Assembly: GCF_963676685.1 (NCBI RefSeq)
Contig: NC_092349.1
Span: forward strand, 31,434,001 to 31,498,000
DNA: 64,000 nt
Origin: Mytilus edulis
Taxonomy: Eukaryota
Direction of reading: 5' to 3'
Below the pieces are notes generated by a model. It was not told the origin of the DNA. It made no database searches and saw only the letters and a list, made by a program, of their open reading frames with translations. The translations under genes and the position numbers were made by a program. Positions 13,001-64,000 of the stretch are shown here, piece after piece. Every line of letters starts with the position of its first letter. Position 1 is the first letter of the stretch.

Positions 13001-16000
13001 TTTGACATGAATATCAATAATGTGATCATTTTTATAAATTTTCTGATACAAAATTTGAATTTTTCGAAAAACTAAGGATTTTCTTGTCCCAGGAATAGAT
13101 TACCTTAGCCGTATTTGGCACAACTTTTTGGAATTTTGGATCCTCTATGCTCTTTAACTTTGTATTGTTTGGCTTTATAACTATTTTGATATGAGCGTCA
13201 CTGATGAGTCTTATGTAGACGAAACGCGCGTCTGGCGAACTAAATTATAATCCTGGTATTTTTGATAACTAATTTCACAAATTTATGGTGTTAGGATGAT
13301 GATATATGTCAATATCGGATCATATTATGGTATGACATTGTTGTCTTCATCGTCTACATCATTGTTGAGGACCAATACATCTGGTTCCAAACATAACTTG
13401 AGAAAAAGTGAATGAATCTCTATGAAATTGTAACACAAGGTACCATACCACAAAATGAAGGTTGGGATTGGTTTTTGGATTATTGTGCCACTTATCATAT
13501 CAATTTTTTTTCTCCATCTAGGATCTGTATGAGACAACTACAGAAGAGGAAGACAATGCTGAGGAATTGTTAAATGAGGATGGAGATGGTTCGTCATTAC
13601 AGACAACCAATGGGGTCGTAGATCTAGAGGATCTTGGCAAAGTCATGCAAACTATGAAAAAAGCAAAAGTATGTTTAATACTGGACATGTTAGATATTAT
13701 TAAATAGTTACAGTTAACTCTCGTTGTCTCGAAATTTCGGATGAGTCGAAGTTTTCACGTGGTCCCGAACTTTATTCCATACAAAAGTATGTAATTCGAC
13801 TCCTGATGAATCGAAATTTCGGTTGAGTCGAACTAAATTTACGGTCCCAAGGTTAACAAAAGCATTCAAAAATCATTTTTTATCTCGAACTAATACACAT
13901 ATGTCAAAACATGACCTCCGGGATTTAAATGGATTGAAGAGTTAATCTGACAATACACGTGTAAATTAAATTTCCGGTCACTGACCACTGTATTGATTTA
14001 TGACATGCTATTTCCATGAGTGTTTTCCAAAGATTATCTTTTATAGAATTTTTATAAATAATTAGTGATAAATTGTTAATGTTCATGAAAAAGTATTTTA
14101 ATTGTTTACAAAACAATTAATTTGTGATTTACACTAATGAGCTTTGGTGTGTATAAAGTGAGGATTATGGCTTCCATTGATGATCACCTAAAAACTACTC
14201 AAACGGCGTCTTTAATCTTATTATATGTTCTTTTGAAAACAAAGAGTGAGATAAAACAAAATGGAAATCAAAATTTTCTTAAATCTCTTGTATCCGAGAA
14301 TAAACAATTTTGTCAGCTATTAGCGACCTGAATTACGAAACTGTCGATTGGAAATTACTCTCTTGGAAAAGCCATAGGATTTTTTTTTTAATTGAAACAT
14401 TTGAATAAATAAAAATAACAGTCATTGTAATAATAAAAGACTGTGACATACAAATACATCGATCTGATACTAGAATATCGATCCCCTTGTCATATTCACC
14501 CGGATTTATTTTAGCTTTACCAAGCTAAACAAGAGTTGTGTCCCTTAGATTGTCGAACTTCCGGTGTTCGTTTGAGTCGAACTACGTGTATCTCGAAATA
14601 TTTCTCTGGTCCGGCTGACTTCGACATAATGAGAGTCGACTGTATTTGGGAAATAGTGATTTTAGGCTTTTAATGGCATATTTAAGTCCTTGATTTTCAC
14701 TTAGTCAAGCTCAAAGAACACTGTCCTCTCCTGTGCCTTAAGGTGGGGAATAGCAGTAGTCCAGTTCCTTATGGGGATTGTAAAGATCATGAATTATATT
14801 TTAAGTGCCAACATCAAACAGCATCTTGCTCCAGCTGTGAAATAGTTGTAGTTTTCTGCTTTTAAGGTGGTAGACCTTGGTTCAGGGAGATAACTCTTTA
14901 AATCACTTATGTGTTTGTTAAAGTCAAGTTTCATCAATGTTTTTAAGCATTTACCTGAAACAGATTGGAAATAATCTATGTAACCTAGAAGCTTAGAATA
15001 TATTTTTGAAAATGGTTGACACAAATGTACTGATGATTTAAGAGTTATTTCCCTTAACCTAGGTCTACCTCCTTAAGTGACTGGCAAGATAATGATATTA
15101 TGTTCCATTGACTATAGTGTTTAGTGAATTCCATGTTCCTGATCAAACCAATCCAGGCTTTGAAATATAAAAGTCTCAATGAATATAATATCTCTGGGGT
15201 TGATAACAAATTGTATCAACTTAATCAAAAGTCAATTATTGTATTTCATGTATATATTATAATCACTTAGAAATCAGTCAATCACCTATGTATATTTCAT
15301 GTAACTAATAAAGGTTTTAGCCAATTGACCAATGCCCTTTTAAGTTTTATCCAAATGACCAACGCCCTTTTAAAAAATGACCAATTTGTTTGAAGGTAAG
15401 AAGAAAGAAAGAAGAATCAGCACAGTCAACTGGTGAACCTAGAGAAATGGTTACACCTATGCTAAAGAAGGCATTAGAGAAACAGGGATACAGGCTGATA
15501 GGGTCACACTCAGGGGTCAAGCTATGTAGATGGACAAAGGTAATAAATTTAGAATTACAGACATTGCTTATATAAAAATAAGAAGGATGTGGCATAATTG
15601 CCAATGAGACAACTGTCAACCAGAGAAGAAGTTAGCAACAATATATTATACATCACTATATGACCTTGGATGTTTTAGTTCTTATTTATAAAATGATTGA
15701 CATTATATGAAATAATGTTTTTAACATTTTATTTACTGCAAGAAAAATATTTAGTATTAAATGTACTAAATTTTAATAGAAAATGAAGATGTGGTATGAG
15801 TTCCATTGAGACAACTCTTCATCCAAAATGTAAACAATTATAGGCCTTCAACACAAAGCCTTGGCTCACACAGAACAGCATCCTATAAAGGGTCTCAAAA
15901 TGACTAGTAAGAAACAATTCAAACAGGAAAAACAATGATCTTATCTATATATAAACGGGAAATGAAAAACACTTATGAACCAAATCAACAAAAGACAACA

Positions 16001-20366: not shown

Positions 20367-21322
20367 TATTTGCACATGTTTTTACCTGCTGTGATTTTTT
20401 AATTATTATCATGATATTGTTATGAAGGATATTAAAATATTTAGTATAAACATGTCAAGAGTTTTTGATAATTCTAATGTTGTTTGTTATGATTATTTCA
20501 TTGGAGAGTGTTGGGTAACCAAAATATTATTCATATATACATCTGTTTTATGAAAAAAGGTGTAAGGGTGTAAAGTTTAATTAGTGTTGATGAAATCTTT
20601 TATCTCTGAATATGTGAACCTGATTTTGAACTGTACATAATAAAGGCTCGGTCTAGTCATCACATAGTAGAGTGCAATAAACTTTTTATTTCAGTTTGGA
20701 ATAAGTGAGAATGAATGAGAAGTTCAATGAACATGTCCATTAGCCCCTTCATTATATCCTATATCACCATAATAAATCATATTTATCCATCACATGTTCT
20801 TCGTCATTTATGTTTTATTTTGAACTTATATAAAGGTTATTTATGAAACAGGTGTTGCACCAACTGACATTTTTATCTGTTTTTTCTACTTGTTTTATGG
20901 TTGGGCAATATTTTTGCTTCATTAATCCTATTCTCTTTATTACAGCATATTAAGATAAACTGAATGAATAAAAGCTCTTCTTAATGAATATGAGAGATTT
21001 TTTTACAGATTCAATGCAAAGGTTTCTTTTCTATTTGTTCATTGTTAATTTTTAATTGCACGTTTTTGTCAAGCCTGCAACTTCTGTTGCAAAACGCTCG
21101 ACATAGGGATAGTGATCCGGTGGCAACATTAACAAACTTCTTAGAAGCTTTATATTTCATAAGGTAGAAGACCTGAATCCTTTGTATTTAGATGCCTTAT
21201 GATGCAAAGTTTCTGTCTGTCATATGTCCATTGTCCTTCACCTCATTTTCATGCACGGTTCAGTGACTACTTGAAAAAAAGTTAAAATTTTAGTAATCTT
21301 AATTTCTCTCATATTATGAGGT

Positions 21323-33300: not shown

Positions 33301-33786
33301 ATAAGGAGATTAATCACTAAATTTAGAATAAGTGATCACTCCCTTTTGATTGAAAAGGGGAGATATTTTAAAATCCCAAGAGAGGAACGACGTTGCCATA
33401 AATGTAAAATACTAGAGGATGAGAAACATTTTTTACTCTATTGTGAGTATAATAAAACTCTAAGAAATGATTTTTTTCCTCACATATGTACTGAAAATAA
33501 TAACTTTAATAATTTAAATGAAGAAGAAAAAATTCAATATTTACTAAATCCATCATCGCCTTTACAAACAAATAAGTTAGGCATGTGTTAGGATCCTTCT
33601 TGAAAAAGTCATTAGAACTTAGGGCAGGGGACTCTTAACAACTTGTTTGTTGTTAAAAAAAAAATTGATGCTGTTGTTATTGTGTATGTTTAACATGTAT
33701 GTTTATTGTGTTTATTGTGTTAATATATGTTGGTCACAAACTGTAAAGTTTATATGACAATAAAAAAATATTTGATTTGATTTGAT
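30350..33786 (+). mobile_element. Non-LTR retrotransposon ORF2 (APE endonuclease, RT, C-terminal Cys/His), 5'-truncated and disabled; tentatively RTE-X-like
   Basis: YIPP, GDF, ILNGR, VDY and SDH (30552-31343), then a frameshift. NYRGISL, QFGFR and FIDLKKAFDSV (31336-32193), then an in-frame TGA. GVKQGDTLSP, LFADD and RISDHSLLIEKGRY...CHKC...HFLLYC follow. (TTTGA)3 tail. Confidence 0.93.
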
Positions 33787-34509: not shown

Positions 34510-35765
34510 ATTTTTTAACCGGATTTTCGAATTAAATATCGATTATTAATTTGGGGATGTACGGCGGACGGTTGGGCAGGCAGGTGTCTGCCAAACAGTG
34601 TCTGCACCATAACATGAAAACACTTTGACAATTTTTTTTTCAAATTTGAATATGTTGTTTACTGTGACTAAATAAAGGTCTTGTTCAATTTTCAAGATTT
34701 TCATCTTTCTCTTTTTGAGTGATCACCATTTTTGATATCCAAAAGTGGTATTTTTTAATATTTTATCTTGTCATATTATGACTGTGGTAAAGTATATGGT
34801 AAATGTCTTATCCCACAATTATAATTGGAGTGACAGATTTATTTGAAAATTTTCTATTTCGTAAATGGTGATAATTATAAGCTATATATAGTATTAAACA
34901 TTTTGAAGTTAATTACACTACTAATAATTTTATGGTGTGTATGTTTTTCTGTAAAAACTAATTTTCTGAGTGATAGCTAGTTTTATAAATGTTTTTTTTT
35001 TGTGTCTGTTAATTTTAATTTTTACTTGATCCTGTTTGGGGTTCCAGATATGAAAATGCATCAGATAATAATCTATTATTTATAAGTTAAAAAGTTAAAA
35101 TTAAGATAAGATAAGTTGCAGATCTATATAAGTATGTTACAAATGAAAGAGTAATATTGGGAACCATCAACTATATACATAAAGTTTGATTTTGATTTCA
35201 ACACTAAGTGATAAGATAACACACATCTGTTAATTTTCAATGCAATCGACCAATTATAATTGAAGTGACAGATTTATTAGAAAACTATTATTTATATTAG
35301 ATTGTGATTTAAAAATGATTATAACATCACATCTCTTTTATAATCCTGGTACCTTTGATATCTCTTTAAGTCATATCTAATTGTGTAGTCTATGGTGAAC
35401 TCATATTTAATTTTAGATTTACATTATTGAATCATGGATATAAAGGTTGTTTTGTTTCCATTTGAACAGAAATGGTTTACTCAGTATATCATCAAAACTT
35501 GAAATATGGGGGTTCCTGGATATGCTGATTCTAGCAATGTCCTTAGATTGGATATTGGATCATAATAGGTAAATGTTTAACTTCAAATTTTTCAGTTCTT
35601 TGAACACATTTATTTTGTGTCACAAACACATGCTGTATCAAATATTCAATCACAATCCCAATTCAGAGCTGTTAAGCTTAAATATTGTGTCCATACTTGC
35701 TCAACTGTTCAGGGTTTGACCTCTGCAGGAAAATCAGATTTGCTATCTCTCTGACAGCCTCTTGT
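34510..35765 (+). mobile_element. Decayed HINE-like repeat
   Basis: The 3' part (35500-35730) is similar to HINE 23745-23970. Absent from duplication copy 3. Confidence 0.5.
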
Positions 35766-35907
35766 CTTAACTTAAAAAAAAGTAGCTTTTTATTCTTAAA
35801 ATTGCAGTGTTAAACACAGAAGCAATGCGGCTATGAACAGGATGAATTAGTGGCTTCATATCTTAATAGGTGAACATATCACCTTTTTAACTTTTTTTTA
35901 TTCGTGC

Positions 35908-35947
35908 GTCACTGATGAGTCTTTTGTAAACGAAACGCGCGTCTGGC
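35908..35947 (+). ncRNA. Type I hammerhead ribozyme in a ~90-nt solo insertion
   Basis: gtca-CTGATGA-gtct(tttgt)aaac-GAAA-cgcgcg-TC^tggc, with one stem II mismatch. Confidence 0.75.
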
Positions 35948-36408
35948 ATATATACAAAATTTAGTCCTGGTATCTATGATGAGTTTATTTTTTACTGTTC
36001 TCATCTGTATGACCCTTAGGACAGATAGTACTGCCTTACAAGGTTAATATGCATTACAAAACTCTACCGTTTATCGTTTTTTATTCGGTAAATATCTACA
36101 CAGAGACAATATTATTTCGGACGGTTATCAATAATTCTCGATGAACCCAATGTAACAACTTTAAAAGTGATGACGGAAAGTAATAAGAAAGCACTGTTCC
36201 CTTGAATTTTTTAAAGATATTTCGTACTATTTCATGGGAAATCACCAGTATGAAGATTTGTATAGTTTTCTTCCATACAAAATGTCTTTTTATGATAAAA
36301 AAGATATACTCAATTATATAGTCATATTTTTTTTTAAAGTATCTTCTTTATTCAAACAGATGCAAAGGTAAATGTTCGTTTACTTTTCAACCGATTATTC
36401 TTTGTTTT

Positions 36409-38064
36409 TTATTTGCACAAAAATACCAATATCTCTCTTGTAGTGACATTTGAAATAAACAGTTTAGAAAAGTCGTTACTGAATTCAAAGCCATATGGAC
36501 ATTTAAATTCCTCACTTTTTGTCAAAATAGTTTTGATAGATTTATCTTCAAACGAAAACAGCTTAAACTTTGCTGGTCCATATTCCATTAAATATGCATT
36601 GTTTGAGCTGTCGGTTTTAACAGCCATCACTCGACTAGTATCATCTGAGGACATTGATACAATGGTTCCGTCTAATTTAACACAATTTAATTTCGATTTT
36701 ACAACATTAGCTTGAGCATAATAAAGTTGAGTTTTTGGTCCAATTGATAGGGAGTGTACTAAGCTGCCTCCAACATCAAGTGTTCTCTTTAAGTCACCGG
36801 TTTTGCTTACAATGTATATTTTGCCGGAACTACCTACAGCAATTTGATCGTCAATAAGTGTAATACCATGACATCGTCCTGGTGATTTGATCGTTTTTCC
36901 TTTCTTCATTGTAACTATATCTACTGGTTGAATAGAGTTTATTGTTGGAAGTGTAATCCATGCTAAATTCTTTTCTTCTTCCATAGCTATCCCCCACTGA
37001 ATTCCGTCCATTTGAATTGTTGCCAACTGTTGACCTTTGTCTGACATAACATATAAATTGCTACCGGTATAATTACACAGAAATAATCTATTGTCTTTTG
37101 TCACACCTATACCGGCAATAAGTGCACCAGCTGCTTTGAATTTGACATCAAGTTTAAATTGTGTTGGCATCTTTCTCTGCTGCTGTAGGGCTTGTGCTTG
37201 TTGAACATTAAATGGTTGGTATTTGATATCAAACGAAGACTTCTTTATTTCAATGGAACCAAATGATTTTATAACGGACAACAAATAGGATTCTTTAAGC
37301 GAAAGAGAAACATCTTTTTGGCAAGACAGAAGTTGTTGAAAATCCTTGGCTTGACCTTTTAATTCTGCTTTGATATTATGTAGTAACATAAATATTTGAC
37401 TTTCTGAGCCATATTTTGTGACAGATTCAAACTGTTCGGATATATTTTGTATCTTTGTTCTGCGATCGCATATTTTTTCAAGATCGTCACTAGATTGTTT
37501 TGACAGGTTTGTATGTATTTTGTCAATTTCAGACATGATAGCTGCTTCCATTTCTTGAATACGCTTCTTCAATTGTTTCTCCAAGGTTTTAACTTCTTGC
37601 TGAACATTCTCTTTACTGTCATTAAGACTGATCATGCCTTTTCTCTTTTTATCTTCCAGCTCGTTAACAGCGGTATTAAGAATATGGACATCCGTGTTAA
37701 TTTCTTCATACATGGTTGAACGTTTGACTCCTTTGGCAGCTACTTCAATTGGCAGTAACTTTTCACAAGATCGATGATCATTAGCCATGCATGACTGACA
37801 GCACAATGTATCGTGGTCACAGCAAAAGTATTCTAAAAGCATATTCGGATGAACATCGCATGATTTATTGACAACGACTGGATTTCCGTCAATTACGTTG
37901 ACATCAATAACATGATGGGATGCACATGATTTAATGCTTCCGTGAACATCTAAACATTCGGAACACAGTGCATCCTCGCAGTCTGTGCAATACTTTATAG
38001 CTTTGGTGGATTTACTTCGTCTTGAACAGGTTCCACAAAACATGTTTGGGGATTTTGACGCCAT
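36409..38064 (-). CDS. RING-less TRIM-like protein: B-box1, B-box2, coiled coil, NHL-like/6-bladed beta-propeller (copy 1), 551 aa
   Basis: CxxC...CxxCxxxLCxxCxxxH...HH and CxxH...CxxH...CCxxC...HxxC, then a heptad-rich middle and GI(A/G)-type propeller blades. Single coding exon with an acceptor (CAG|GAA ATG) 3 nt before the ATG. AATAAA at 36352-36347. Confidence 0.9.
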   Translation of the reverse strand: MASKSPNMFCGTCSRRSKSTKAIKYCTDCEDALCSECLDVHGSIKSCASHHVIDVNVIDGNPVVVNKSCDVHPNMLLEYFCCDHDTLCCQSCMANDHRSCEKLLPIEVAAKGVKRSTMYEEINTDVHILNTAVNELEDKKRKGMISLNDSKENVQQEVKTLEKQLKKRIQEMEAAIMSEIDKIHTNLSKQSSDDLEKICDRRTKIQNISEQFESVTKYGSESQIFMLLHNIKAELKGQAKDFQQLLSCQKDVSLSLKESYLLSVIKSFGSIEIKKSSFDIKYQPFNVQQAQALQQQRKMPTQFKLDVKFKAAGALIAGIGVTKDNRLFLCNYTGSNLYVMSDKGQQLATIQMDGIQWGIAMEEEKNLAWITLPTINSIQPVDIVTMKKGKTIKSPGRCHGITLIDDQIAVGSSGKIYIVSKTGDLKRTLDVGGSLVHSLSIGPKTQLYYAQANVVKSKLNCVKLDGTIVSMSSDDTSRVMAVKTDSSNNAYLMEYGPAKFKLFSFEDKSIKTILTKSEEFKCPYGFEFSNDFSKLFISNVTTREILVFLCK

Positions 38065-39349
38065 TTCCTGAAAAAAAAATTAAACACTTTAATTTTGTAT
38101 TTTTATGCGTAGAATATAGATGAAATTTGAATATATTTGATGCGGAATATCTGACTGTCTTCATACTTATATTTGAAACTATATATTCGAAAACTTACAT
38201 ATACAAACTGTAACTAAAGTCAACGTATGTTATTTGATTTGTTACCTATTATTTCTTATTATTAGTCGTCTACAATAGTTGTTGCTTAAGACTACTTATG
38301 TGTCATCACTCCTATATTAGTTTGTATGTGACTGAATGTGTTCCCATGCCATGTTTTGTTTATTAGTAGCATTTTTTGTTTTTTGTTGTTTTGTTGACAC
38401 GGATTCCCTGATCATAAGTTTGTAATTATTATCAAGAAATTAATTTCACATTTGGTAAACCTCTTAGCGTTGTGATAATTATCTTTAAAGACCACTACAT
38501 AAACATGATAAAGTGATCTATAATTAGAGAATTCAAAATAAATATTTAGGCATATATACGGTGTATATTATTCTAAATTTCATGTTTTTGTGGGTTCATA
38601 TACTAGTAATACATAATGATTATGTCATATTTAAGTCAGTGGTATAAAGTTTTCAAAAACATAGTTTCAATATGATATGTTTTGGCAAATTTGAATTTAA
38701 GGGGTCAATTTATGAATGATGACTATTATTTGACGTATGTATTTATTGGTAGTGTATTTAAGGCTGGTTATTTCAGACATTAAAAGTTTCTATATATAAT
38801 ACCTATAAGGATTTACTCTTATATATGTACAGATAAACTCGTTATTTGTAATGTTTGAAAACAAGAATAAAAATGCAGATCGATGGCATTATGATTGCAT
38901 GTGGAAATCACACAGATCTATGAAAACGTAAAGCAGTTCACAGCAGAGATGTTATCTAAAGATGAAAATGCCAAACAATCTTCTGGTATGTTAGTCTAAT
39001 AACATTGCTAATGTACACTCTGCTACGTTTGTTTAGTTAAAAAAAAGTGTGAAATGCTATTATCAGCGCGACAAGTTCATATTGGTTTACCCAAAATATG
39101 GTAACATTGACTAATTGAAATAACATAAAAGAGCAGGAGATGAGAAAACTCCTAAAACTAATTTGAGTATAATTTTGGGAAAACATTTTTAACTCACTAA
39201 ACTAGAAGCAAAAAATAGGATAAATATATTTTTTTGATTGAACAACAAAAATGGAATCAGATGTGATCAGGCATAAAATGATAAATTGTTTGCTTCCTTC
39301 CTGGACACAATTCAGAATTTGCATTAATTCTATTAAACTGATATTATTA

Positions 39350-42152: not shown

Positions 42153-44381
42153 GTATGAAAGTACAATAGGAAAACTTAACATCGAAATGAATTAGACAAC
42201 AATACATTAACTAGAGTACAGTACCTAAAAAAAAGTTAAAAATATAAGTTTATGTTTTTGTAAATTGTCCATAGCATATTAAAAACGGAAGCGATTCTAG
42301 CATGAGAAAGGGGGTATGATCAGTATGAGAGTAATTTATAGATTGTCGGAGAATCAAAGTAACTACTAGAAAAGAATAGCAGACGATATATTAAAAAAAT
42401 GGATACACATTTTTTTACTTTTTTTAAGACTATGTCGTAACATTGATACGAGAATTAAGCACCAAACTATGAGCTTGGTTGAATTAAAAATAGACCGAAT
42501 CAATGTGCATTGTATAACACGAGTGAAAAAAGAATCCCAAAACAATGAAGTATAAATTATTTACTTTTTTATTTTATTTTAAAAAGTTGTCAATTAAATA
42601 TCAACAAAGCACCAACCATCTTACAAGCAAAATAATTAGGGGATTATGTGGAAGTATTAAAATTGTAATATTTTATTTAGAATTTAGATTTTTGTATTCT
42701 ATTAATGTGTTAATCCTTATTTAATCCGTTCGAAAAAAGGATTTGTGAATGTATCTTTTGTTTTTAAAATTACTAGGAAGAAAATTATTTTGAATACGAT
42801 TCATTTGATATTCACTTGGTAGTAGCAACATTTTTTAGATAAAATATTATCTGTTGAAAATTGACATCTAGGAAGAAATTCAGACAGCCTTCATTTTGTT
42901 TCAGAATTATAGAATTTACTTAAACAGTTTGCATTTTTCAGGTTGTTGTGATACATAGCTTTCAAGGTCGATGTGAAGAACAAACTGTAGACATATGACA
43001 CAGGACTACAGATACCAGAGATTAGAAAGAAATTATCAATTAAATTATAATTTCTTCATTTTGATTCTTATTGTATTAACATACAAATTTACCATGTTCC
43101 TTGTTTCCGATTTCTCAGTTCAAAACAAATTGAAACAGAAGTCTCTTAAACTATTATACCTGTTCTCGGACTGTATTTTAACAACGTACAAACAGTTGTA
43201 TAAACAAATGTACCTTGGCATACGGAGTACTGAAAGGGACTTGATCGTGTTGTAAAATAAAATCCATTTTGTGAACACAAAATTCAATTCTTTCGTAACA
43301 GTATCATTCAAGCCTTACAAAACTATGTGATGCATACTTGTTGTATGAAAACTTCCATTTTGTAAACTCATTTGCATACAAAATTGAATTTTGTTACCTG
43401 AAATGGACATTAAAATATAAAAGTCAAATTAGGGAGATAAAACTGAATTTGTTCGCAATTTACATGTTCATTTAATTCGTATCCTTCTTTTTTGTGTAGA
43501 CAAAATTCAGTTTTGTTAGACAGAAATGGAATTCAATACAAAATTGGAGCACCCATATCACAGAGACAGAATTTGACTCTCACCTTTTAAAACAGATAAT
43601 ACTACAAACTATCATCACTGCGAATTGATCATCAGTGTTCTAGGTTGTCTTCTTCTTTGAGTTATATCCTCAGTTCTAGGAGCACCTGTATAACACCTAC
43701 ACCGAATCTTCTAATAGGGCTTTCAAACGGCTATGGGAGACAAACTAATAAACTAATCAAAACTATCAACAAAATAGATCAGTGCATATAAACAGTTCAA
43801 GAAACATGAACCTTAAACATTTCAAGTAGTGTTCAAGCCACCTATGAGCGTTTTTTTCTTTTTAGATGTTCATATAATTAAAAAATAATTTCAAAGTTTG
43901 CATCAAAATTAATTGTTTAGCACATAGACTATTTTCATATTACCATGTTAAGTATATCAAAGTCCAATAGACTATTTTCTTATTACCATGTTAAGTATAT
44001 CAAAGTCCAATAGATTATTTTCATATTACAAACATTTGACTTCGAAATTTTAATTATTTGGACAGGTTACCTACGACATCCTGGTACCAAGTCAAGTTAG
44101 AGCAACGTAAAGGAGTAAAATCAAGCTTTTAATCTTTACAATTTTTGGGGAAAAGAAACCTCTTCATATTTTCTTAACACGACAAACTCATCAGAAATTA
44201 GTAAAATTTCCCCTCAAGTTACACTGATTAAATGTTTGATTCTACTTGTTATGACTGCTTTTAATTGATGTCCTAGGTAACCTGTCAAAAAATAATATTA
44301 ACTGGAGTCAAAAGTCAATCATATGAAAATAGTCTATTAAATCTTTACAGCTGTAAGAAATGTATTTTTCTTTCATTACAG

Positions 44382-44624
44382 TTTAAAGTGGATGGTGAAT
44401 GGTGGACGTGGATAGACTACCCCAAATTTCATCAGTTAGTTAAGGGCTTTAATGAATCACAAAAGGCATTCTCTGCTGAAGATTACATGGCTAAGACTCC
44501 ACCATGGGCTGTGTTTGGAGCAAAGGAACAAGGCTTTGACCCTGTGGAGACCAGATTCTTCAGGAAAAAAACAGAAAGATATTGGAGGATGCTAATATTT
44601 GCATATGTTTTATACCTGCTGTGA
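44382..44624 (+). pseudogene. Duplicated TYW1 terminal exon (orphan or alternative last exon)
   Basis: Nine substitutions relative to 20154-20366, intact ttacag acceptor, and +1 A in an A-run near the end giving ...RKKTERYWRMLIFAYVLYLL*. Confidence 0.85.
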
Positions 44625-46178
44625 ATTTTTAATTGTTGTCATGATATTGTTATGAAGGATATTAAAATATGTAGCATAAACATGTCAAGAATTCTTGATA
44701 ATTCTAATGTTGTTTGTTATGGTTATTTAATTGGAGAGTGTTGGGTAACCAAAAGATTAAAACATGTTTACATGTGTTTTATGAACTCAAAAGTACGAAT
44801 TGTTATCAGGTGAGATGTTTTTTTAAGTGTTGTTAAAATCTTTTATCTCTGGATATGTGAACTTGATTTTGAATAATATGTTATAAAGACTCTGTCTCGT
44901 TATCACATAATTGTGTGCAATAGACTTTTAATTTCAGTTTGCGAATGAGTGAGAAGTTTGATGAACATGTCCATTAACCCCTTCATCATGTTCATTATAA
45001 CCTATATCACCATAATAAATCATATTTATCCATCACATATTCTTAGTCATTTATGTTTTATATCGAGCTAACACGAAGGTTATTTATGAAACAGGTGTTC
45101 TACAAAGTTCCATTTTTATGTTTTTCTACTCGTTTTATGGTTGGGCAATATTTTTGCTTCATTTATCCTATTTTCTTTATAAGCATATTACGGTAAACTG
45201 AATTATAAAAAAGCTCTGTTTAATGAATATGATAGAATTTGTACAGATTCAATACAAAGATGTCTTTTCTATTTGTTCATTGTATTGTTAATTTCTCATT
45301 GCATTTTTACATTTTTGTCAAGCCTGCAACTTCTGTTGCAAAAAGCTCAACATGGGGATAGTGATCCGGCGGTAACATTAACAAACTTCTTAGACGCTTT
45401 ATATTTCATAAGATAAAAGACCTAGATCCTTCATACTTTGTATTTAGATGCCTTATGTTACAAACTTTCTGTCTGTCATATGTTGATTGTCCTTGACCTC
45501 GTTTTCATGCACGGTTCGTATTATGAGGTATAGGATAACCATATTTGGTATGTAGTTACCTTTCAAGGTCATAATACTTGTTTTCACTTAAGCTCAACCT
45601 TATTTCATGCATCAGTGAACCAGATGAAATTTCCGTGGTCAAGTCCATGTCTAAAGTACTATAGGTTATAGGTTTACTATGTTTGGTGTATCAAATGATT
45701 GTATGGTTTACATGTCCAACCAACAGGTGTCATTTGACCTTGACCTAATTTTCATGGTTACCATTTAAGGGTTGCAGTTAATAACCAATAACTGCAATCC
45801 AGATACATTGTAAGTTAAAAAAACTTTGAAGATGTAAAACGCAACAGATTGTTGTGGCATAATGTTCTCATAGCAAGTTCCAAGAATCATAAACAGCATT
45901 AGATTTGAGGTTTCAAATTAAAAGAGTTGAAAATGATGAAAAAAAATACTGTAGATAATGCATTTAAGGTTAAAAAAAACTAATTCGACTTGATTGGAAT
46001 AATATATACATAAATAAAATGTAAAATAGGTTTGCACATTTCGTTTTTTTTGTTCAGATCAAAATTACCTGGTTCTGTACTACCAATCTTCCGACAACCA
46101 GTGGGCTTGAGTATGTAATTAAAAGTATTTTAATTTTTTCAGCACTAGTCGGGATATGGTATAGTTTTGACTATAGAG

Positions 46179-47230
46179 TACCATAGCAGTATTTGGCACA
46201 TTTTTTTTTCGAATTCTGGGTTCTCAATGCTCTTCAACTTTATAATTGTTTAGGTTTTTAACCATTTTGATCTGTGGCTCACTGATGAGTCTTATGTAGA
46301 CGAAACACACGTCTAACGTATAAAAATTATAAGTCTTGATAATAATTTACAGCACTGGGTCGATGCCACTGCTAGTGAACGTTTCGTTCCCGAGGGTATC
46401 AACAGACCAGTAGTAAGCACTTCTCTGTTTACATGAATATCAATTATATGGCCATTTTATTTAAATTTACTGTTTGCAAAAGTATGAATTATTCGGAATA
46501 CTACGGGTTTTCTTAAACCAGGCATATATTACCATAGCCGTATTTTGCAGAACTTTTTGGAATTTTGGGTCCTCTATGCTCTTTAACTTTATACTTCTAA
46601 AGGTTTCTAACCGTTTCGATAAAAGCGTTACTTAGACCTTCTATAGTTAGAAGACGAAACACTGATGAGTCTTATGTAGACGAAACGTGTGTCTGGCTAT
46701 TGAAATAATCAGCCTGGAACTTTTGATAACTATTTACACCACTGGGTCAATGCCACTGCTGGTGGACATTTCGTATCACCAGCCAAGTAGTCAGCACTTC
46801 AGTATTGACATGAATATCAATTATATGGTCATTTTTTGAAAATTTACTGTTTACTGCAAAAGTATGAATTATTCGAAAAACTATGGATTTTCCACAGCGG
46901 TATTTGGCACAACTTTTTGTATTTGTTTTGGTTCTCAATGCTCTTCAACTTTATACTTGTGTGGGTTTCTAACCATTTTGATCTGAGCGTCACTGAGTCT
47001 TATAAAGATAAAACGCGCGTCTGGCGTATTAATTTATAAGCCTGGTACCTTTGACAAATATTTACCATACGGTCGATACCACTGCTGGTGGACGTTTCGT
47101 CCCAGAGGGTATTACCAGCCCAGTAGTCAGCACATGTGTGTTAACATTAATATTAATTATATGCTCTGTTTGGATTTATAATTATTTTAATCTGAGCGTC
47201 ACTGATGAGTCTTATGTAGACGAAACGCGC
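46179..47230 (+). mobile_element. Tandem array of retrozyme-like monomers with four hammerhead motifs
   Basis: CTGATGA cores at 46282, 46662 and 47202, plus a degenerate core at ~46993. Spacing is ~380, ~330 and ~210 nt. Confidence 0.85.
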
Positions 47231-48369: not shown

Positions 48370-50028
48370 TTATGTGCACTGAAATACCAATATCTCTTTG
48401 GTATTGCAATTTGAAATACACAGTTTAGAAAAATCATTACTGAAAGCAAAGCCATATGGATTATTCAGTCCTTCATTTTTTGTCAAAAAAGTTTTAATAG
48501 ATTTATCTTCAAATGAATAAATTTTAAAATGTGCTGCTGCGCATTCTAGTAAATATGCATTTCCTATTCTGTCGAGTTTAACACCAATCAGGTAGTTTAC
48601 ATTTTCAGCAGAGATAGAAGTAACTAATCCATCTAATCCTACGCTTTTCAGTGTGGATTTTCCTATATTACCCTGAGCATAATAAAGTTGATTTTTTTGT
48701 CCAACTGATATGGAGTGTACCTCGCTGCCTCCAACATCAAGTGTCTTCTTTATCTCACCGGTTTTGCACATAATGTATATTCTACCGTAACTACCTACAG
48801 CAATTTGATCGTCAATAAGTGCAATACCATGACATCGTCCGGGTGATTTAATCAGTTGTCCTTTCTTCCTCATTGTAACGACATCTACTGCCTGGACGGA
48901 ATGTTTATCTAGTAGTGTGACCCATGCTGAATTCGCTTCTTCTTCCATAGCTATCCCCCACTGAGGTCCGTCCATTTGTATCGTTGCCAACTGTTGACCT
49001 TTGTCTGACATAACATATAAATTGCTACTGGCAGTATTACATAGGAACAATCTATTATCTTTTGTCACACCTATACCGGCAATAATTGCACCAGCTGCTT
49101 TGAATTTGACATCAAGTTTAAATTGTGTTGGTATCTTTCTCTTCTGCTGCAGGTTTTGTGCTTGCTGACCCTTAAACGGCTTGTATTTGATATCAAAGGA
49201 AGCCTCTTTCATTTCCACTGAACCAAATGATTTGATAAAAGACAACGAATCGGATTCTATAAACGAAAGAGATACACCTTTTTGTGACAATAACAGATCT
49301 TCGAAATCATTGGCCTGACAGTTCAATTCATTTTTCATATTATGAATGAACATAAATATTTGACTTTCTGATCCATGTGTTGTGACGGATTTAAATTGTT
49401 CTGAAATATTTTGCATCTTTTTTTGTCAATCGCATATTTTTTCAAGGTCGTCACCTGATTCTTTTGACAGGTTTGTATGCATTTTGTCAATTACAGACAT
49501 GAGATCTGCTTCCAATTCTTGAATGCGCTTCTGCAATTGTTTCTTCAAGTTTGTAACTTCTTGCTGAACAATCTCCTTACTGTCATTAAGACTGAGCATG
49601 GATTTTCTCTTTTTATCCTCCAGCTCGTTTACAGCAGTATTGAGAATACGGACATCATTGTTAATTTCTTCATACATGGTTGAACGTTTGACTCCTTTTG
49701 CAGCTACTTCAATTGGCAGCAGTTTGTCACATGACCGATGGTCACTAGCCATGCATGACCGACAGCACAATGTATCATGGTCAGAGCAAAAGTATTCTAA
49801 AACCATACCCGGATGAGCATCGCATAATTTATTGACAATGACTGGATTTCCGTCAATCACGTTGACATCTATAACATGATGGGACGCACATGCTTTAATT
49901 GTTCCGTGGACATCTAAACATTCTGAACACAGTGCATCCTCACAGTCTGTACAGTACTTTATAGCTTTGGTGGATTTACTTCGTCTTGAACAGGTTCCAC
50001 AAAACATGTTTGGGGATTTTGACGCCAT
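48370..50028 (-). pseudogene. TRIM-like gene copy 2, interrupted by a single in-frame TGA (49428-49426)
   Basis: ATG at 50028 (MASKSP). The two track ORFs are in the same frame and read CD*QKKMQN, versus CDRRKKIQN in copy 3. Otherwise 552 open codons. Confidence 0.88.
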
Positions 50029-53000
50029 TTCCTTAAAATAAAATATAACACTTTTATTTTTTATCAGTTTGGTGTTATTAAATTGATCAATTTGTCTGCG
50101 TTCAAACATATATTTGAAACTGAATATATTTGATGCGGAATATCTGTCTGCCTGTAAACTTATATTTGAAACTGAATATTCGAAAACTTACACAAACAAG
50201 TTGCGATGTATGTAAATTGATCAGTTACCTATTATTTCTTACTCTTAGTCTGTCTACCATAGCTGCTGCTCAAGACTGCCTATGTGTCATCACACCTAAA
50301 TATGTGAGTGTATGTTTTCCCATGCCATATTTTGTTTTTAATAGTATTTGTTTTGTTTTTGTTTTGTTGACACGGATTTCCACGTAATAGATTTGTAATT
50401 ATTATTAAAAAAAATAGTTCACATTTGTATTTGTATCTTAGCTAACATTGTGATAATTATCTTAAAATATCACTGAATTAAGTAATCTATAATTGGAGAA
50501 AAAAATATTTATAGATAATTATACGATGTAAATTCAAGCGAATTTTATGGTTTATGAGGGTTAATATACTAGTAATACATAACTTACTGTATTATCTTTA
50601 AGTCAGTGGTATCAAGATTTCAAAAACATACTAGTTTCAATTTGATATTTTTGGACACATTTACTTTAAAGGGGTCAGTTTATGAATGATGTCAATTATT
50701 TGACGTATTTATTGCTAGTGTATTTAATTCTGATCATTTCAGATATGTGAAGTTTTTATACACTTTTTATAGTTGCAGAATCGTAGCTCTAAGATCCTTA
50801 TTTTATTTTTATTATGGTCCGCAAATAGTAAGACAATAACATCAGGACCTAAGAGCTACGGTACTGCAGCTATATCTTTTGCAGACCTCAAGATAAAAGG
50901 AAACATTGTTATAATTCATAAAACATTATCATTACAAGGATTAACTCTTATATATGTAGATATAAACTCGTCATCTGTATGTAAACAAAAATAGAAATTC
51001 AGATCGATGGCATTATAATTCTGGATAACACACAGAAATAGACACGAAAATGAAAACGTAAAACAGTACAGAACAGAGATTTCATCTCAAGATAAAAATG
51101 CCAAAAAAAAAATAATTCTGGTATGTAAGTGTTATAACATTGCTAATTTATACCCTACAACGTTTCTTTCTTTTTTAGTGGTGTGGAATGCCACTTTGAG
51201 TGATTCTTGCTACACCATGGCTACCAGATTATATTGGTTTACCCAAAATATGATTACATAGACATTGAAATTACATATAAGAACAGGAGATGAGAAGACC
51301 CCTAATACTTAGTCATATATATACTTTTAGATTTTAACAAAAAATCTGGACCAGATGTGATCAAACATAAAATGCAAAATTGTGTGCTTTTTTTCTTGGA
51401 CACAATTCAGAATTTGGTGTAATCATATTAAACTGAAATATGCTTATGGTAGTTTTAACATTACATTTACTCGAGGAAGCGTCAAGTTATTGATATAGAG
51501 GTACTTAAGTATAGATAGTTATATTATATTAAACACAAACATATTAATTCAAAAAGATAGAGCAATCTTGAAAAAGTTTGATATTAAAATAAAGAGCTTT
51601 GAAATTGTTCTTTTAAATTTTTATTTTCATAAAGTTGACATAACAAAATACTGCAAATAAAACAGCATGAATAAAAATGTTATGTAAGTAACCACCTATC
51701 AGTTTCATCAATCAGCATTTCAATGAAGTGAATAATACATGTAATATAGGACGAACAAAATAATGTAAAATTTATAAGCTTGTATGTGTACTATGTGGAA
51801 TATCTTTAAAAATTCGGATATTGTTAGATTCTCTTTAAAACCTTCCCAATTGTGCTACGATAACAAATTAAATATTCACACCTTTCATTATGTTCCTGTA
51901 TTTGTCTTAACATTTGATATGCATTTATATATATAATTGTGAATATGTCCCTGTTTGCCCCGAATACAGGACAAGACAAGACAAAGGAACTTATCGAATT
52001 AAACAAATGCTTTATTTTTATATGCCAAACATGCACTAAAAATGTAAACACTAATTCTACCAGTTGTCTACGGTGAGATGAATATCTCTTTCTTTAATTC
52101 GTAAACAATCAGGTATTAAGATCATCGGAGTAAACCCGTCGACAGTACTTTTATTTTATCGAACTATTCAAGGAAGTATGGATTTACTTGAATTTATATT
52201 TATAAGGAATATTTACCTTTACTAATTTTTACACTTCAACGCCATACTACAGTTATATATTTATATAATTTCAAAGGAATATTTACCTTTCCGATGCAAT
52301 AGTAAAACTTCCACTTGTTGACTTGGACTTGAGTCGACCGATAAAAGGTAGATAACTTGTGTTTGTTTACTACCTGTGTTTAACCGTATTAATATTGTAA
52401 ATCATTTAACGATGGAGATATGTATTTTTCAGATTTATATTTAAATTAAATGAGGTGGATATTAACATATAAGTTTATTTCGCCATTTACTTTGTATGGG
52501 GGTATGCGTGAACGGGGCGGGGAAGAGGGACGTTAGCTGCTATGATTTTTACAAGACAAGCATTTTGTTTTGTTCTAGCTTTCATCAAAACGAATTTAAC
52601 AGTAGAACATGAAGAAGGTAGAAATTTTTCGATATATTTTGTTTTCTTGTTCATTAAAGAACAATTCGCCAAATTGTTTTAAAAAAATCGTAAATTTCGA
52701 ATGGTGAAATTCGGCAAAGTTTCATTGTCAACAAATAATAATAGCTATGGCAATTTTAAGATACTTTCAACCACGATTACAAATATAAGCATGACATTTT
52801 AAATTTACTTTTGTAGACATAAAATGGTGAATTTCAACAGAATTTCGACGGATGGTGCATCAACCCCTTCACTTTCAAGATGAATTTTAAAAAAATAAAT
52901 AAACGAGAGAACATTTTCGGTAAACATTTTATTGTATGTCTTAAAAATAAACACCCTCATACGACAAACACAGTGGAAACTTTCAGACGACTGGTTGTAT

Positions 53001-55404: not shown

Positions 55405-57060
55405 TTATGTGCACAGAAATACCAATATCTCTTTGGTAGCGAAATTTGAAATAAACAGTTTAGAAAAATCATTACTGAAAGCAAAGCCATATGGCATATT
55501 CAGTCCATCCTTTTGTGTCAAAATAGTTTTAATAGATTTATCTTCAAATGAAAACAATTTAAAATTTGCTGCTTTGTATTCCAGTAAATATGTATTCCCT
55601 GTTCTGTCGGTTTTAACATCAATTACGTGGTAAGTATTTTCAGAAGAAACAGACGTAACTGTTCCATCTAATCCTACACTTTTCAATGTAGACTTTCCTG
55701 TATAAGCCTGAGCATAGTAAAGTTGATGTTTGAGTCCAACTGATATTGAGTATATACTGTTGATTCCAACATCAAGTGTCTTCTTTATTTCACCTGTTTT
55801 ACTTATAATATATATTTTGCTGGTACAACCAACAGCAATTTGATCGTCAATAAGAGCAATACCATTACATCGTTCGGGTACTTTGATCAGTTGTCCTTTC
55901 TTCATTGTAACTATATCTACTGGTTGAATAGAGTTTATTCCTGGTAGTGTAATCCCTGCTAAATTTTTATCTTCTTCCATAGCTATCCCCCACTGTACTC
56001 CGTCCATTTGAATGATTGCCAACTGTTGACCTTTGTCTGACATAACAAATAGGTCGATACCAGATTGATTACACAGAAACAATCTATTTTCTTTTGTCAC
56101 ACCTATGCCGGCAATACCTGCACCAGATACTTTGAATTTAACATCAACTTTGAATTGTGTAAGCATCTTTCTCTGCAGATGCAGGTATTGTGCTTGCTTG
56201 ACATTAAACGGTTGGTATTTGATATCAAGACAAGACTTCTTTATTTCAATGGAACCAAATGACTTCATAACGGACAACAAATCAGACTCTTTAAGCGAAA
56301 GAGAAACATCATTTTGGGACGATAGCAGTTCTTGAAAATCATTTGCATTACAGTTCAGTTCTTTTTTTATATCATAAATGAACATGAATATTTGACTGTC
56401 TGATCCTTGTGTTGTGAAGGATTCAAACTGTTCAGAAATATTTTGTATCTTTTTTCGTCGATCGCATATTTTTTCAAGGTCGTCACTTGATTCTTTTGAC
56501 ACGTTTGTATGCATTTCGTCAATTTCAGACATGACAGCTTCTTCCATTTCTTGAATGCGCTTCTGCAATTGTTTCTTCAAGGTTTTAACTTCTTGCTGAA
56601 CATACGCCTTACTATTATTAAGACTGACCATGCCCTTTCTCTTTTTATCTTCGAGTTCGTTAACAGCATTAATGAGAATACGGACATCTGTGTTAATTTC
56701 TTCATACATGGTTGAACTTTTGACTCCTTTGGCAGCTACTTCAATTGGCAGTAGTTTGTCACAAGAGCGATGATCACTGGCAATGCATAACCGACAACAC
56801 AATGTATCATGGTCAGAGCAAAAGTATTCTAAAACCATATCCGGATGAACATCGCATGATTTATTGACAATGACTGGATTTCCGTCAATCACGTTGACAT
56901 CTATAACATGATGGGATGCACATATTTTAATGCTTCCGTGAAAATCTACGCAGTCTGAACATAGTCCGTCCTTGCAGTCTGTACAATATTTTACAGCTTT
57001 GGTGGATTTACTTCGTCTGCCACAGGTTCCACAGAACATGTTTGGGGATTTTGACGCCAT
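55405..57060 (-). CDS. RING-less TRIM-like protein (B-box x2, coiled coil, beta-propeller), copy 3, 551 aa
   Basis: Intact ORF paralogous to 36409-38064, with the same acceptor before the ATG and AATAAA at 55344-55339. Confidence 0.9.
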   Translation of the reverse strand: MASKSPNMFCGTCGRRSKSTKAVKYCTDCKDGLCSDCVDFHGSIKICASHHVIDVNVIDGNPVIVNKSCDVHPDMVLEYFCSDHDTLCCRLCIASDHRSCDKLLPIEVAAKGVKSSTMYEEINTDVRILINAVNELEDKKRKGMVSLNNSKAYVQQEVKTLKKQLQKRIQEMEEAVMSEIDEMHTNVSKESSDDLEKICDRRKKIQNISEQFESFTTQGSDSQIFMFIYDIKKELNCNANDFQELLSSQNDVSLSLKESDLLSVMKSFGSIEIKKSCLDIKYQPFNVKQAQYLHLQRKMLTQFKVDVKFKVSGAGIAGIGVTKENRLFLCNQSGIDLFVMSDKGQQLAIIQMDGVQWGIAMEEDKNLAGITLPGINSIQPVDIVTMKKGQLIKVPERCNGIALIDDQIAVGCTSKIYIISKTGEIKKTLDVGINSIYSISVGLKHQLYYAQAYTGKSTLKSVGLDGTVTSVSSENTYHVIDVKTDRTGNTYLLEYKAANFKLFSFEDKSIKTILTQKDGLNMPYGFAFSNDFSKLFISNFATKEILVFLCT

Positions 57061-61451: not shown

Positions 61452-61856
61452 GTACCACAGAATCCGGGGGCGCTTGATCATATTGATGTCTATTTCTTCA
61501 AACATATAAATAAATAAACGAAATAATTTCTTAATTGACTGTACTGTGATTTCATCGTTACATATTTTGATTCCTGTCGTGGTAACAGTTAAACGAAGTA
61601 GAATTTTTCTATAAGGTTTTAATAAACTTTGCGAATATCATGAACTCCATTGCCAATATCTCTTCAAAAACATTAGAATAGAATAAGGATAATTTGGTTA
61701 TTTGATCGGAATTTGTCATAGAGATTGAAGTGTAAAATCAATAGCTAAAGCAATATGACTTTTAGTTTTTTCTACATCTGTTACTTTTTCTTTTGACGTT
61801 AAACGAAGTGTAAAGTCTACCTGGTACATTTATTGACACTAATTGTCGTTGCTTTA

Positions 61857-62325
61857 TTTACATCACTGGGTTGATGCCACTGCTGGCGGACATTTCGACC
61901 CCGAGGGTATCACAAGCTCAGTAGTCAGCACTTCGGTGTACAAATGAATATCAATTATATGGTCACTTTTATACATTTACTGTTTGAAAAAATATAAATT
62001 ATCCGAAATACTAAAGATTTTCTAATCCTATGCATAAATTACCTTAACCGTAATTGGCACAAATTTTTGGAATGTTTGGTCCAATCTCCGGCGCAGTACT
62101 TACTTCGTATCACTACACTAAATATGTATTGTAGTGTACTAAGTATACGGAAAGTAAACGAGCGCTGTATGGAGATTGCGTTTGGTCCTCCATGCTCTTA
62201 AACTTTGTACTTGTCTTGCATTTCAGACTTTTTTTTTTATCAAAGCGTCACTGATGAGTCTTATGTAGACGAAAAGCCGGTCTGGCGTATTAAATTATAA
62301 GCCTGGTACCTTTGATAAATATTTA
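61857..62325 (+). mobile_element. Retrozyme-like monomer with hammerhead (core 62246-62287), interrupted by a small MITE at 62082-62178
   Basis: cgtca-CTGATGA-gtcttatgtagac-GAAA-agccgg-TC^tggcg, with stem III mutated. The MITE has TIR caatctcc/ggagattg and a 9-bp near-TSD (t/c)gtttggtc. Confidence 0.8.
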
Positions 62326-64000
62326 ATGGGTATAAAGAGATAACAATGAATTAAAACATATTAAATGTTGAACGAAGTAGACATTTTCTATTGGATTTTA
62401 TAACAATGTCACTAACTCAAACATTCTTTTAAAATCTAAAATAGAATAAGAATAATTGACCTAGTATTTGTGATAGAGATTGTACTGTAAAATCACTTGC
62501 TGAAGCAATCAATAAAGCAATTTGACGTTTAGTTTTTTCCACATCTGTTGCTTTTGACATGCAACGAAGTATAAAGTCTTCCTTGTAAATTTATTAACAA
62601 GAATTTTGTCAAGATGAACACATGCAAAATAATCGCTGTTCTGATTTTGTATTCAATACAACAATCACACAGTGCCAATATTGGATGGCCTGTGAAATGC
62701 AAAGGTAGGATCATTTTTTAACATCTGTTATTTCATTAGTTTAAAATTGCATGACAAAAATTGGTTTTAATACTTACCAACATCATTGTTTAAGTTTTAA
62801 ATTGAAATAGCAGAAACCACATAATAATTCAACAAAGAAAGTTTTACACGTTTTATTAAGCATTGTGCATTGGCGTTTTTTCTCATTTATGATTAACATA
62901 TCTCTACCTACCAGATTCCGACAGATACCATTACCAAGGTCACGAAATGACCGAAGCATAGAGATGTAAAAAATTATCCTAGTCCCGTCAATCTGTATTT
63001 CCATCCACAATAAAGGTGATCTTCGAACTTCATCGTTATGCCTACAGAAATGAGTCTTATTTTGGTACATAAACATACGTCAAAGATTTAAAGTATGACT
63101 TATGCTTTCTCATCGAATTCTGATTCCTATGCAGAATTATGGCCCTCAAGAATTATCGCAGTTAAAAAAAAAAAAAATTTTAAGCAAAATAATGAATTAA
63201 TGGTATCAACTCTTTTAACTTTGTACTTTTAGTGAACTTTATCTTATGCTTGATGATCTGGAGCTGATTTCAATACATCATTGTAAGATAATGAGATTTT
63301 TTCTTGTTGACCGACTTTTCATTGAATTGCGCACATTGATTAAGAAAGTTCACGCGAAATCCTCTTGTATTGACAAATTTGCTTGCGTGTCTTAATTGTT
63401 AGATTATCAATGTATAACATTAATGAATTGATAAATTCACTGTGTCCCGACCCGATGTTAGTAATAAAATTGACGGAACAATTGAACCATACGCGGATAT
63501 TGTTTATTCAGTGATGTTCTGGGCAAAAATATGTGAAAAACAAAAGCTTATTTTAAACCAAAGAGTAGAACGGTTAACACATTTGGTCAAGCTGTCTGAG
63601 CTTTACATTAGCGGGATATTACTGATGATATACCAATATATTCATATCATGCCAATTTCAAAGCACAGGATACTTTAATGGTGATAATCTCGAGGACTAA
63701 CTGTCAACCAGTAAAGACTTTCGACCCAGTAAAAATAATAACATTCATTCAACAATAACAATTTACAACTCCAGTTGTGCATTTTGACAATATGTCAGTG
63801 ATGCTCAAGGCCAAAATGTAAAGAAAAAAAACCCAAAAAAACACAATTCTTCTCATTCTTATCATGAAAAGCTAATTATGAACAAAAAGGGACAAAATTA
63901 TAGCCAAAGACGGACAATGATTTGGAACTTTTCCCAAGAACGATAAATCCTTCATGCCTTATGTGACAGAAAGATAGTTTTTTATTTTTTCTAAATAAAT

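What the first reader, a model, noticed from the sequence alone, without database searches (positions are those of the whole stretch)
46179..47230. Tandem hammerhead-ribozyme (retrozyme) array and dispersed copies
Seen: a ~350-nt non-coding repeat recurs head-to-tail here and singly at 13002-13272, 35901-35990 and 61857-62325. Each copy has CTGATGA-gtct(tatgt)agac-GAAA-cgcgcg-TC or a decayed form. The last array copy ends at the stem III palindrome (47230), three bases before the cleavage site. Established: tandem type I hammerhead repeats in animals (non-LTR retrozymes) yield self-cleaved, circularised RNAs, and I recall such elements being described in Mytilus. Inference: the array derives from reverse transcription around a circular template and inserted after the segmental duplication, since copies 1 and 3 lack it.
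Basis: partly seen in the sequence, partly recalled or inferred. Interest (0 to 1): 0.7.

Follow-up and report, generated by a model that had tools for sequence, protein, structure and literature searches.

The report
Dead mussel retrozyme carrying Naiad hairpin
This is an old, broken copy of a very common mussel repeat that carries a self-cutting RNA motif, and copies of the family stop just before an RNA hairpin that also opens Naiad jumping genes, which likely names the enzyme that spreads them.

Summary
The repeat is real. 46173-47230 holds about three head-to-tail units of a 355-nt type I hammerhead repeat with thousands of copies in this genome. It fits the published Mytilus non-LTR retrozymes in size and abundance (sequences not compared). 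The array is a fossil: units 84-87% like a young copy, all four hammerheads broken, unique flanks without RNA reads. Ending near the cleavage site is atypical (0 of 55 insertions; 50 end 37-56 nt past it), and no clean empty site dates the array after the duplication. The added point: insertions stop about 6 nt before a covarying ~65-nt hairpin that also opens three Naiad (hammerhead-less Penelope-like) families here, whose copies stop at the same offset. Its core motif sits at the front of 12 of 54 published Naiad consensus sequences. Naiad reverse transcriptase likely copies this repeat by internal initiation next to that hairpin; untested at the bench. My paper searches did not find this link. 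The scan noted it before on other DNA, and that note gave me the lead.

The parts
46173..47230 (+). Decayed array of retrozyme family F1 (355-nt unit): 5'-truncated, 3' end lost
   Evidence: 83.6-86.9% identity to young copy L021
46173..46313 (+). Partial first unit (monomer 217-355), ending at the hammerhead cleavage position
46276..46319 (+). Hammerhead 1: core intact, stem I broken (3 of 6 pairs)
46345..46420 (+). Naiad-type hairpin, unit 1
   Evidence: model R1 76.2 bits; fold z -1.48
46656..46699 (+). Hammerhead 2: 31-nt insertion displaces the 5' strand of stem I (3 of 6 pairs, 2 contiguous)
46732..46797 (+). Naiad-type hairpin, unit 2, with a 10-nt deletion
   Evidence: R1 36.6 bits
46986..47027 (+). 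Hammerhead 3: catalytic core lost (3-nt deletion, GAAA changed)
47058..47133 (+). Naiad-type hairpin, unit 3
   Evidence: R1 66.1 bits
47196..47230 (+). Hammerhead 4: cut three bases before the cleavage site; no 3' strand of stem I, no tail
13002..13278 (+). Younger single F1 copy, 5'-truncated, hammerhead nearly intact (13195-13238), normal 3' tail; no hairpin, so not a full unit
   Evidence: 95.7% identity, stem I 5 of 6
35884..35990 (+). Short F2 copy (hammerhead plus tail) inserted in duplicate 1 only
   Evidence: 93.6% to F2; absent from duplicates 2 and 3
35338..35369 (+). F1 tail-only fragment
   Evidence: 87%, E 4e-5
61855..62325 (+). One full F1 unit, hairpin to tail, with a ~107-nt foreign insertion; hammerhead stem III broken
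   Evidence: R1 84.4 bits at 61856-61931
63448..63817 (-).
   Evidence: 70-74% to F4; R1 26.8 bits at 63663-63739

Best explanation
The array is a decayed insertion of an abundant mussel hammerhead repeat (non-LTR retrozyme) that was likely copied into the genome by the reverse transcriptase of a Naiad Penelope-like element. Shown: unit anatomy (hairpin, AT-rich body, hammerhead, ~43-nt tail); a fixed 3' end about 6 nt before the hairpin with scattered 5' ends; the same hairpin and the same end offset in three Naiad families; no intact hammerhead in this array. From papers: mussel retrozymes self-cleave and accumulate as circles (PMC7229834), and a Penelope-like RT nicks AT-rich DNA and starts inside its RNA, needing sequence 3' of the start (PMC11167929). 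Inferred: Naiad protein binds the hairpin, nicks AT-rich DNA, starts about 6 nt 5' of the hairpin, copies through the hammerhead junction and goes round the circle (or along an uncleaved multimer) until it drops off. This array later lost its 3' end and part of unit 3 by deletion.
For: 6112 exact 43-nt hammerhead copies in G000, control 0. Hammerhead pairs hold across four families, 96.2% paired. 3' ends: F1 23 of 26 at +37..+48, F2 27 of 29 at +45..+56, 0 of 55 at the cleavage site; 53 of 63 in a larger, overlapping set. Only 4 of the first 100 tail copies begin at the cleavage site. Units within young arrays 97.2% alike against 92.5% between arrays (16 arrays). Hairpin: same predicted fold in F1, F4, N2, N3; 97.7% paired, 10 of 23 pairs with compensatory change, 0 of 500 shuffles. 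A model built from retrozymes alone finds the fronts of Naiad N3 (83-84 bits), N2 (62-72) and N1 (24) and the start of no ORF in 39 loci fetched around other Penelope-like elements. End offsets to the hairpin: F1, F2, F4 median -6; N3 -3..-6; N1 -6,-6,-6,-8,-18; N2 -6..-13. Core motif at the front of 12 of 54 published Naiad consensus sequences. 0 of 53 F1 ends sit in (TA)n, and Mytilus Naiads are listed without target preference. RNA runs X23 and X24 show a strand-biased excess over the whole unit.
Against: No binding or copying was tested; a shared hairpin may reflect ancestry, a promoter or a processing signal. Only part of the Penelope-like diversity was seen (150 of 858, 142 of 10309 and 150 of 3981 candidates scored), so a closer partner may be missed. 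N1 matches the model weakly (E 4e-4) and is misaligned in the inner stem of alignment A2. The retrozyme tail does not resemble the Naiad 3' ends by eye. Target duplications are weak (7 nt or more in 24.5% against 11% in controls). In the hammerhead test the number of compensatory pairs was reached by 362 of 500 shuffles. The whole monomer folds no better than shuffles (z 0.05). No pile-up of RNA ends at the cleavage site. PMC11167929 found uncleaved RNA to be the main substrate, which weakens the need for a circle.
Confidence: 0.7

Rival explanations
1. Same helper, but the template is an uncleaved linear multimer from a genomic array; hammerhead and circles are passengers.
For: In PMC11167929 hammerhead mutants did not change insertion. 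Every end pattern measured here fits a multimer as well as a circle. Most insertions hold one unit or less (38 of 63).
Against: Circles dominate retrozyme RNA in mussel tissue (PMC7229834, part 3). The hammerhead is kept with compensatory changes across families. Units within an array are more alike than between arrays, as one circle would give, though a homogeneous master array would too.
Confidence: 0.35
2. The hairpin is not a docking site but a 5' processing or promoter element inherited from a Naiad; it sets the RNA ends, and copying starts at a free 3' end with template jumps.
For: It lies at the very front of Naiads, 34-41 nt before the first ATG. 6 of 63 F1 insertions begin inside its 5' strand. 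The N2 3' UTR holds a 70% identical copy of F1 positions 105-380, so hairpin plus N2 UTR cover the whole unit, as a deletion derivative would.
Against: No Rfam family matches it. Covariation argues for a folded strand, not a DNA promoter. Ends scatter over about 7 nt, unlike a ribozyme cut. The N2 segment ends at the family's fixed end in some copies, as a captured insertion would.
Confidence: 0.2
3. The helper is a hammerhead-bearing Penelope-like element (Neptune or Poseidon type), as proposed for vertebrate retrozymes.
For: Li et al. 2026 link 24 of 57 Xenopus families to known elements, 21 of 22 of them Penelope-like. Such elements with open frames and minimal hammerheads are abundant here.
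Against: Their 3' UTRs share nothing with F1 or F2 beyond nested copies. Most end in (TA)n, F1 does not (0 of 53). No hairpin at their starts.
Confidence: 0.08
4. The array is satellite DNA grown in place by unequal crossing over.
For: Units are old and unequal in length; local expansion is the model discussed by Li et al. 2026.
Against: Thousands of dispersed copies on both strands, short arrays in one fixed register with a truncated first unit.
Confidence: 0.04

Closest known systems
Mytilus galloprovincialis non-LTR retrozymes (Cervera and de la Pena 2020, PMC7229834; read parts 1-4 of 6, supplement unreadable)
   Same: Type I hammerhead, ~350-390 bp units (355 and 360 here; their clone is 353), thousands of copies, two similar ribozyme families, short tandem arrays, low GC.
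   Different: This array is dead. The parts I read do not describe a fixed 3' end or a hairpin. Their review (PMC7761336, passages) says metazoan retrozymes show no conserved motif pointing to a helper. Direct sequence identity was not tested.
Naiad Penelope-like elements (Craig et al. 2021, PMC8557442; passages, section 6, part 1 and string searches of supplement file 1)
   Same: Front hairpin, 3' end register, 5' truncation, partial tandems, no (TA)n preference in Mytilus. N1 matches Naiad_Mgal by eye at its first bases and N-terminus.
   Different: Naiads encode GIY-YIG and RT and lack canonical hammerheads; the repeat is non-coding and has one. 'Hairpin' and 'stem-loop' occur 0 times in that paper's main text.
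Poseidon of Anolis, internal initiation (Frangieh et al. 2024, PMC11167929; read parts 1-2 of 4)
   Same: Copying starts inside the RNA, downstream of a hammerhead, needs RNA 3' of the start, inserts at AT-rich DNA.
   Different: Different clade; two start sites there, one cluster here; autonomous element; signal not homologous as far as seen.
Vertebrate retrozymes as Penelope-like derivatives (Li et al. 2026, 10.64898/2026.07.22.740005; read parts 1-4 of 5)
   Same: Retrozymes as non-autonomous partners of Penelope-like elements.
   Different: Based on pLTR similarity in Xenopus; no mollusc sampled; Naiad found only in a coral and not linked to retrozymes.

Membership tests
Metazoan non-LTR retrozyme | Type I hammerhead in each unit | tested here: met
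   Young copies RF00163 33 bits, cut-off 34; covariation. In the array 4 motifs, all damaged.
Metazoan non-LTR retrozyme | Short (150-450 bp) non-coding tandem units, low GC, many copies | tested here: met
   355 and 360 nt; no frame of 100 aa over the array; 6112 copies.
Metazoan non-LTR retrozyme | Expressed in ribozyme sense | tested here: met
   Family level: 6134 of 8,710,588 and 7086 of 8,252,136 reads, 2-5 fold strand bias (strand read by the tool's usual-library rule). Not shown for this array.
Metazoan non-LTR retrozyme | Self-cleavage and circular RNA | not testable with these tools
   Reads crossing the unit end fit circles and tandem transcripts alike; no pile-up of ends.
Metazoan non-LTR retrozyme | Target duplications, when present, longer than 4 bp | tested here: inconclusive
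   7 nt or more in 24.5% of 53 against 11% in shuffled pairs; none at this array.
Published M. galloprovincialis retrozyme families | Sequence identity to the cloned circles | not testable with these tools
   Supplement too large; four motif strings found in 0 papers.
Active retrozyme (Li et al. 2026 definition) | [quoted passage not shown] | tested here: not met
   0 of 4 hammerheads intact in the array.
Naiad (for helpers N1-N3) | N-terminal GIY-YIG with upstream CxxC, CxC, DKA, C-terminal RT | tested here: met
   One copy of each family: all motifs present, 995-1012 aa, 57-65% identical to each other.
Non-autonomous Naiad partner | Shared cis element at the copying start | tested here: met
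Non-autonomous Naiad partner | Similarity to the helper's 3' terminus | tested here: not met
   No match of the F1 or F2 tail to Naiad 3' ends; only an internal decayed copy in the N2 UTR.
Non-autonomous Naiad partner | Mobilised by Naiad protein | not testable with these tools
   Needs an in vitro priming assay.

The most novel reading that the evidence does not exclude
A ~65-nt RNA hairpin, conserved at the front of Naiad elements from mussels and oysters to acorn worms and a fish, is the docking site that places a telomerase-related reverse transcriptase about 6 nt upstream of itself. At least four mussel retrozyme families (F1, F2, F4, F5) are hammerhead circles that carry this signal and are copied by a helper that has no hammerhead of its own. 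The hairpin would be a portable tag that makes any circular RNA a template for genomic insertion.
Probability: 0.5. Interest if true: 0.72.

Novelty: new variant of a known kind. Interest (0 to 1): 0.47.

Why it matters
The locus itself is ordinary: one dead copy among thousands. The family-level result bears on two open points stated in the papers read: which element mobilises metazoan retrozymes, and what a Penelope-like RT recognises. It names a candidate helper, a short candidate signal and a start position, so one in vitro assay can test it. It also shows that a hammerhead repeat need not derive from a hammerhead-bearing helper.

Tried and rejected
End at the cleavage site as a mechanism: rejected (0 of 55; 0 of 63). 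Cleaved linear monomer as main template: no excess of starts at the cut (4 of 100, against 7 of the first 30 loci starting 11-27 nt upstream). The first 30 loci were biased by a pattern spanning the cut, so ends were recounted on 60 loci picked upstream of it, 5 duplicates dropped. F2 as the pseudo-LTR of an autonomous element: rejected, it is a 360-nt sister unit, 79.5% identical to F1. C-terminal-endonuclease Penelope-like elements as helpers: no shared ends. CpG decay in the array: 18 of 82 against 133 of 943, p 0.07, not significant. Homology between the intervals of duplicates 1 and 2: at shuffle level. Whole-monomer stability: z 0.05. Rfam for the hairpin: nothing below E 0.9. The run search listed no holder on record as RNA; two raw RNA runs were laid instead. 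Right junction of the array in runs X15 and X16: contigs reach only 23 letters into it, under the tool's 31-letter rule. Paper searches: (Naiad + Penelope + hairpin + Mytilus: 0 papers). Supplements not seen: PMC7229834 (Figs S4, S5, S9) and the 2026 preprint; either may bear on the hairpin or the fixed end. Repbase was not available.

Full report
Observation. The region 46173-47230 is a head-to-tail array of a ~355-nt unit. Against a young natural copy (L021) the four pieces are 84.8, 83.6, 86.9 and 85.8% identical. The hammerhead word is enriched (9 against 1.32). Rfam gives nothing at the curated score and RF00163 at E 0.003 below it; young copies reach 33 of 34 bits.

State of the array. 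Hammerheads 1 and 2 keep the core but pair 3 of 6 positions in stem I, hammerhead 3 has lost its core, and hammerhead 4 is cut before the cleavage site. In RNA runs X23 and X24 (about 6% read), unique flanks have zero depth and 95-96% of the reads laid on the array run on into other sequence, so they come from other copies. The left junction is spanned by contigs of runs X15 and X16, one of which may be the source sample; the right junction only by 23 letters.

Genome and family. G000 has 1.37 Gb. Its Naiad family N1 matches published Naiad_Mgal by eye, so the host is a Mytilus mussel (inference). Exact counts: 6112 for the 43-nt F1 hammerhead, 8996 and 4362 for the F1 and F2 31-mers. This fits the ~5000 hammerheads, two families and 350-390 bp units of PMC7229834, where self-cleavage and circles were shown. 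I could not compare sequences. At family level, RNA reads are abundant and biased 2-5 fold to one strand; the difference between the strands is about 700-1200 in depth along the unit, as whole-unit transcripts would give (my subtraction).

Ends. On 55 distinct insertions picked upstream of the cut, 23 of 26 F1 ends fall at +37..+48 and 27 of 29 F2 ends at +45..+56; none at the cut; 5' ends scatter. A larger overlapping set gives 53 of 63. Of the first 100 tail copies, 81 have the bases before the cut intact; of the 19 others, 12 are point changes, 3 start 11-19 nt upstream and 4 start at the cut. Copying therefore starts at a fixed point and runs through the junction. Young arrays are 97.2% alike within and 92.5% between (16 arrays). 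The window array's end at 47230 is an exception, best read as later loss (inference).

Duplication. The window holds three B-box gene copies on the minus strand. Duplicate 3 joins the two flanks but shares only 38 nt on the left; duplicate 1 has 1.28 kb of unrelated sequence there, including a tail fragment. Array units are 80-83% alike, duplicated flanks 82.5-88%. The order of events is open. The F2 fragment near 35.9 kb is a clean insertion in duplicate 1 only.

Helper. Penelope-like elements with a C-terminal endonuclease share no ends with the repeat. An earlier scan note (e1-9369154) pointed to Naiads, and I tested it. Three Naiad families with the diagnostic motifs open with a hairpin homologous to unit positions ~44-110; N3 matches F1 at 85.7% over 63 nt. 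F1, F4, N2 and N3 give the same predicted fold, z -2.5 to -3.5, and N1 the same outer stems. On 13 sequences from 7 families, 97.7% of cells pair and 10 of 23 pairs change on both sides (related sequences, N1 partly misaligned). A model from retrozymes alone gave 32 hits in 63 sources: 20 at Naiad fronts, 5 in the window, 4 in 3 of the 39 other loci, all away from ORF starts and on nested retrozyme copies, and 3 more elsewhere in Naiad loci. Five of the 20 Naiad loci fetched had no hit and lack the 5' end or element. Terminal copies stop at a median of 6 nt before the outer stem in F1 (n 52), F2 (19) and F4 (9), and at 3-6 in N3 (9), 6-13 in N2 (4) and 6-18 in N1 (5) (exact-match walk, so rough). 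In the supplement of PMC8557442 the core motif stands at the front of 12 of 54 Naiad consensus sequences, from bivalves, hemichordates and a fish (exact strings, one header not shown).

Mechanism. PMC11167929 shows that a Penelope-like RT nicks AT-rich DNA and starts inside its RNA, needing sequence 3' of the start, with or without hammerhead cleavage. The geometry here matches: start point, then hairpin. I infer that Naiad protein docks on the hairpin and copies backwards through tail and hammerhead, round a circle or along a multimer. Odds: identity as a mussel retrozyme fossil about 0.93; Naiad helper about 0.75; circle as template about 0.55.

Novelty. Retrozymes in mussels, Penelope-like helpers in general (PMC7229834; Li et al. 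2026) and internal initiation are in print. The Naiad hairpin and its use by retrozymes did not turn up in nine paper searches, though unseen supplements may hold it. The scan has noted the same link at several other loci; those notes are not independent support. Verdict: observation confirmed, interpretation partly supported, locus ordinary, family-level link testable; interest 0.47.

Noticed in passing
L141-L165 (L153:1535-2085); beside L099, L110, L119, L128, L130: A further hammerhead repeat (F3) with ~546-568-nt units, 784 exact 26-mers (a few are F4), lacks the Naiad hairpin. Several copies stop near unit position 370 and lie beside C-terminal-endonuclease Penelope-like insertions that end in (TA)n, suggesting a different helper.
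   Followed up: partly
L292-L319: Two more 350-nt hammerhead families (F4, F5) carry the Naiad hairpin; 3408 matches to the hairpin pattern, Naiad fronts included.
   Followed up: partly
L270-L274, L288, 620-1150 nt after the stop: The 3' UTR of Naiad N2 carries one or two 70% identical copies of the F1 body with a dead hammerhead: a captured retrozyme or the family's origin.
   Followed up: partly
window 36409-38079, 48370-50187, 55405-57120 (minus): Three B-box gene copies (TRIM-like by recall); the middle one is split into two frames.
   Followed up: no
window 8157-8498, 12471-12779, 44277-44624 and 20110-21261: Exons of a flavodoxin-domain gene that I recall as TYW1; its apparent last exon is duplicated with the B-box block. 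The 13.0-kb copy lies in its intron, sense strand.
   Followed up: no
window 62081-62185: A ~107-nt inverted-repeat insertion inside the 61.9-kb unit, MITE-like.
   Followed up: no
window 30492-33591 and 24880-28285: A LINE-type RT element in three frames (RVT_1) and fragments that look like a tyrosine-recombinase retroelement (recall; no Pfam hit for the piece tested).
   Followed up: no
window 21809-22950, 7178-7560: 162-, 135- and 22-nt tandem repeats.
   Followed up: no
hairpin core, e.g. window 47084-47091: The invariant core contains GCTGGTGG, which I recall as the E. coli Chi octamer; probably coincidence.
   Followed up: no
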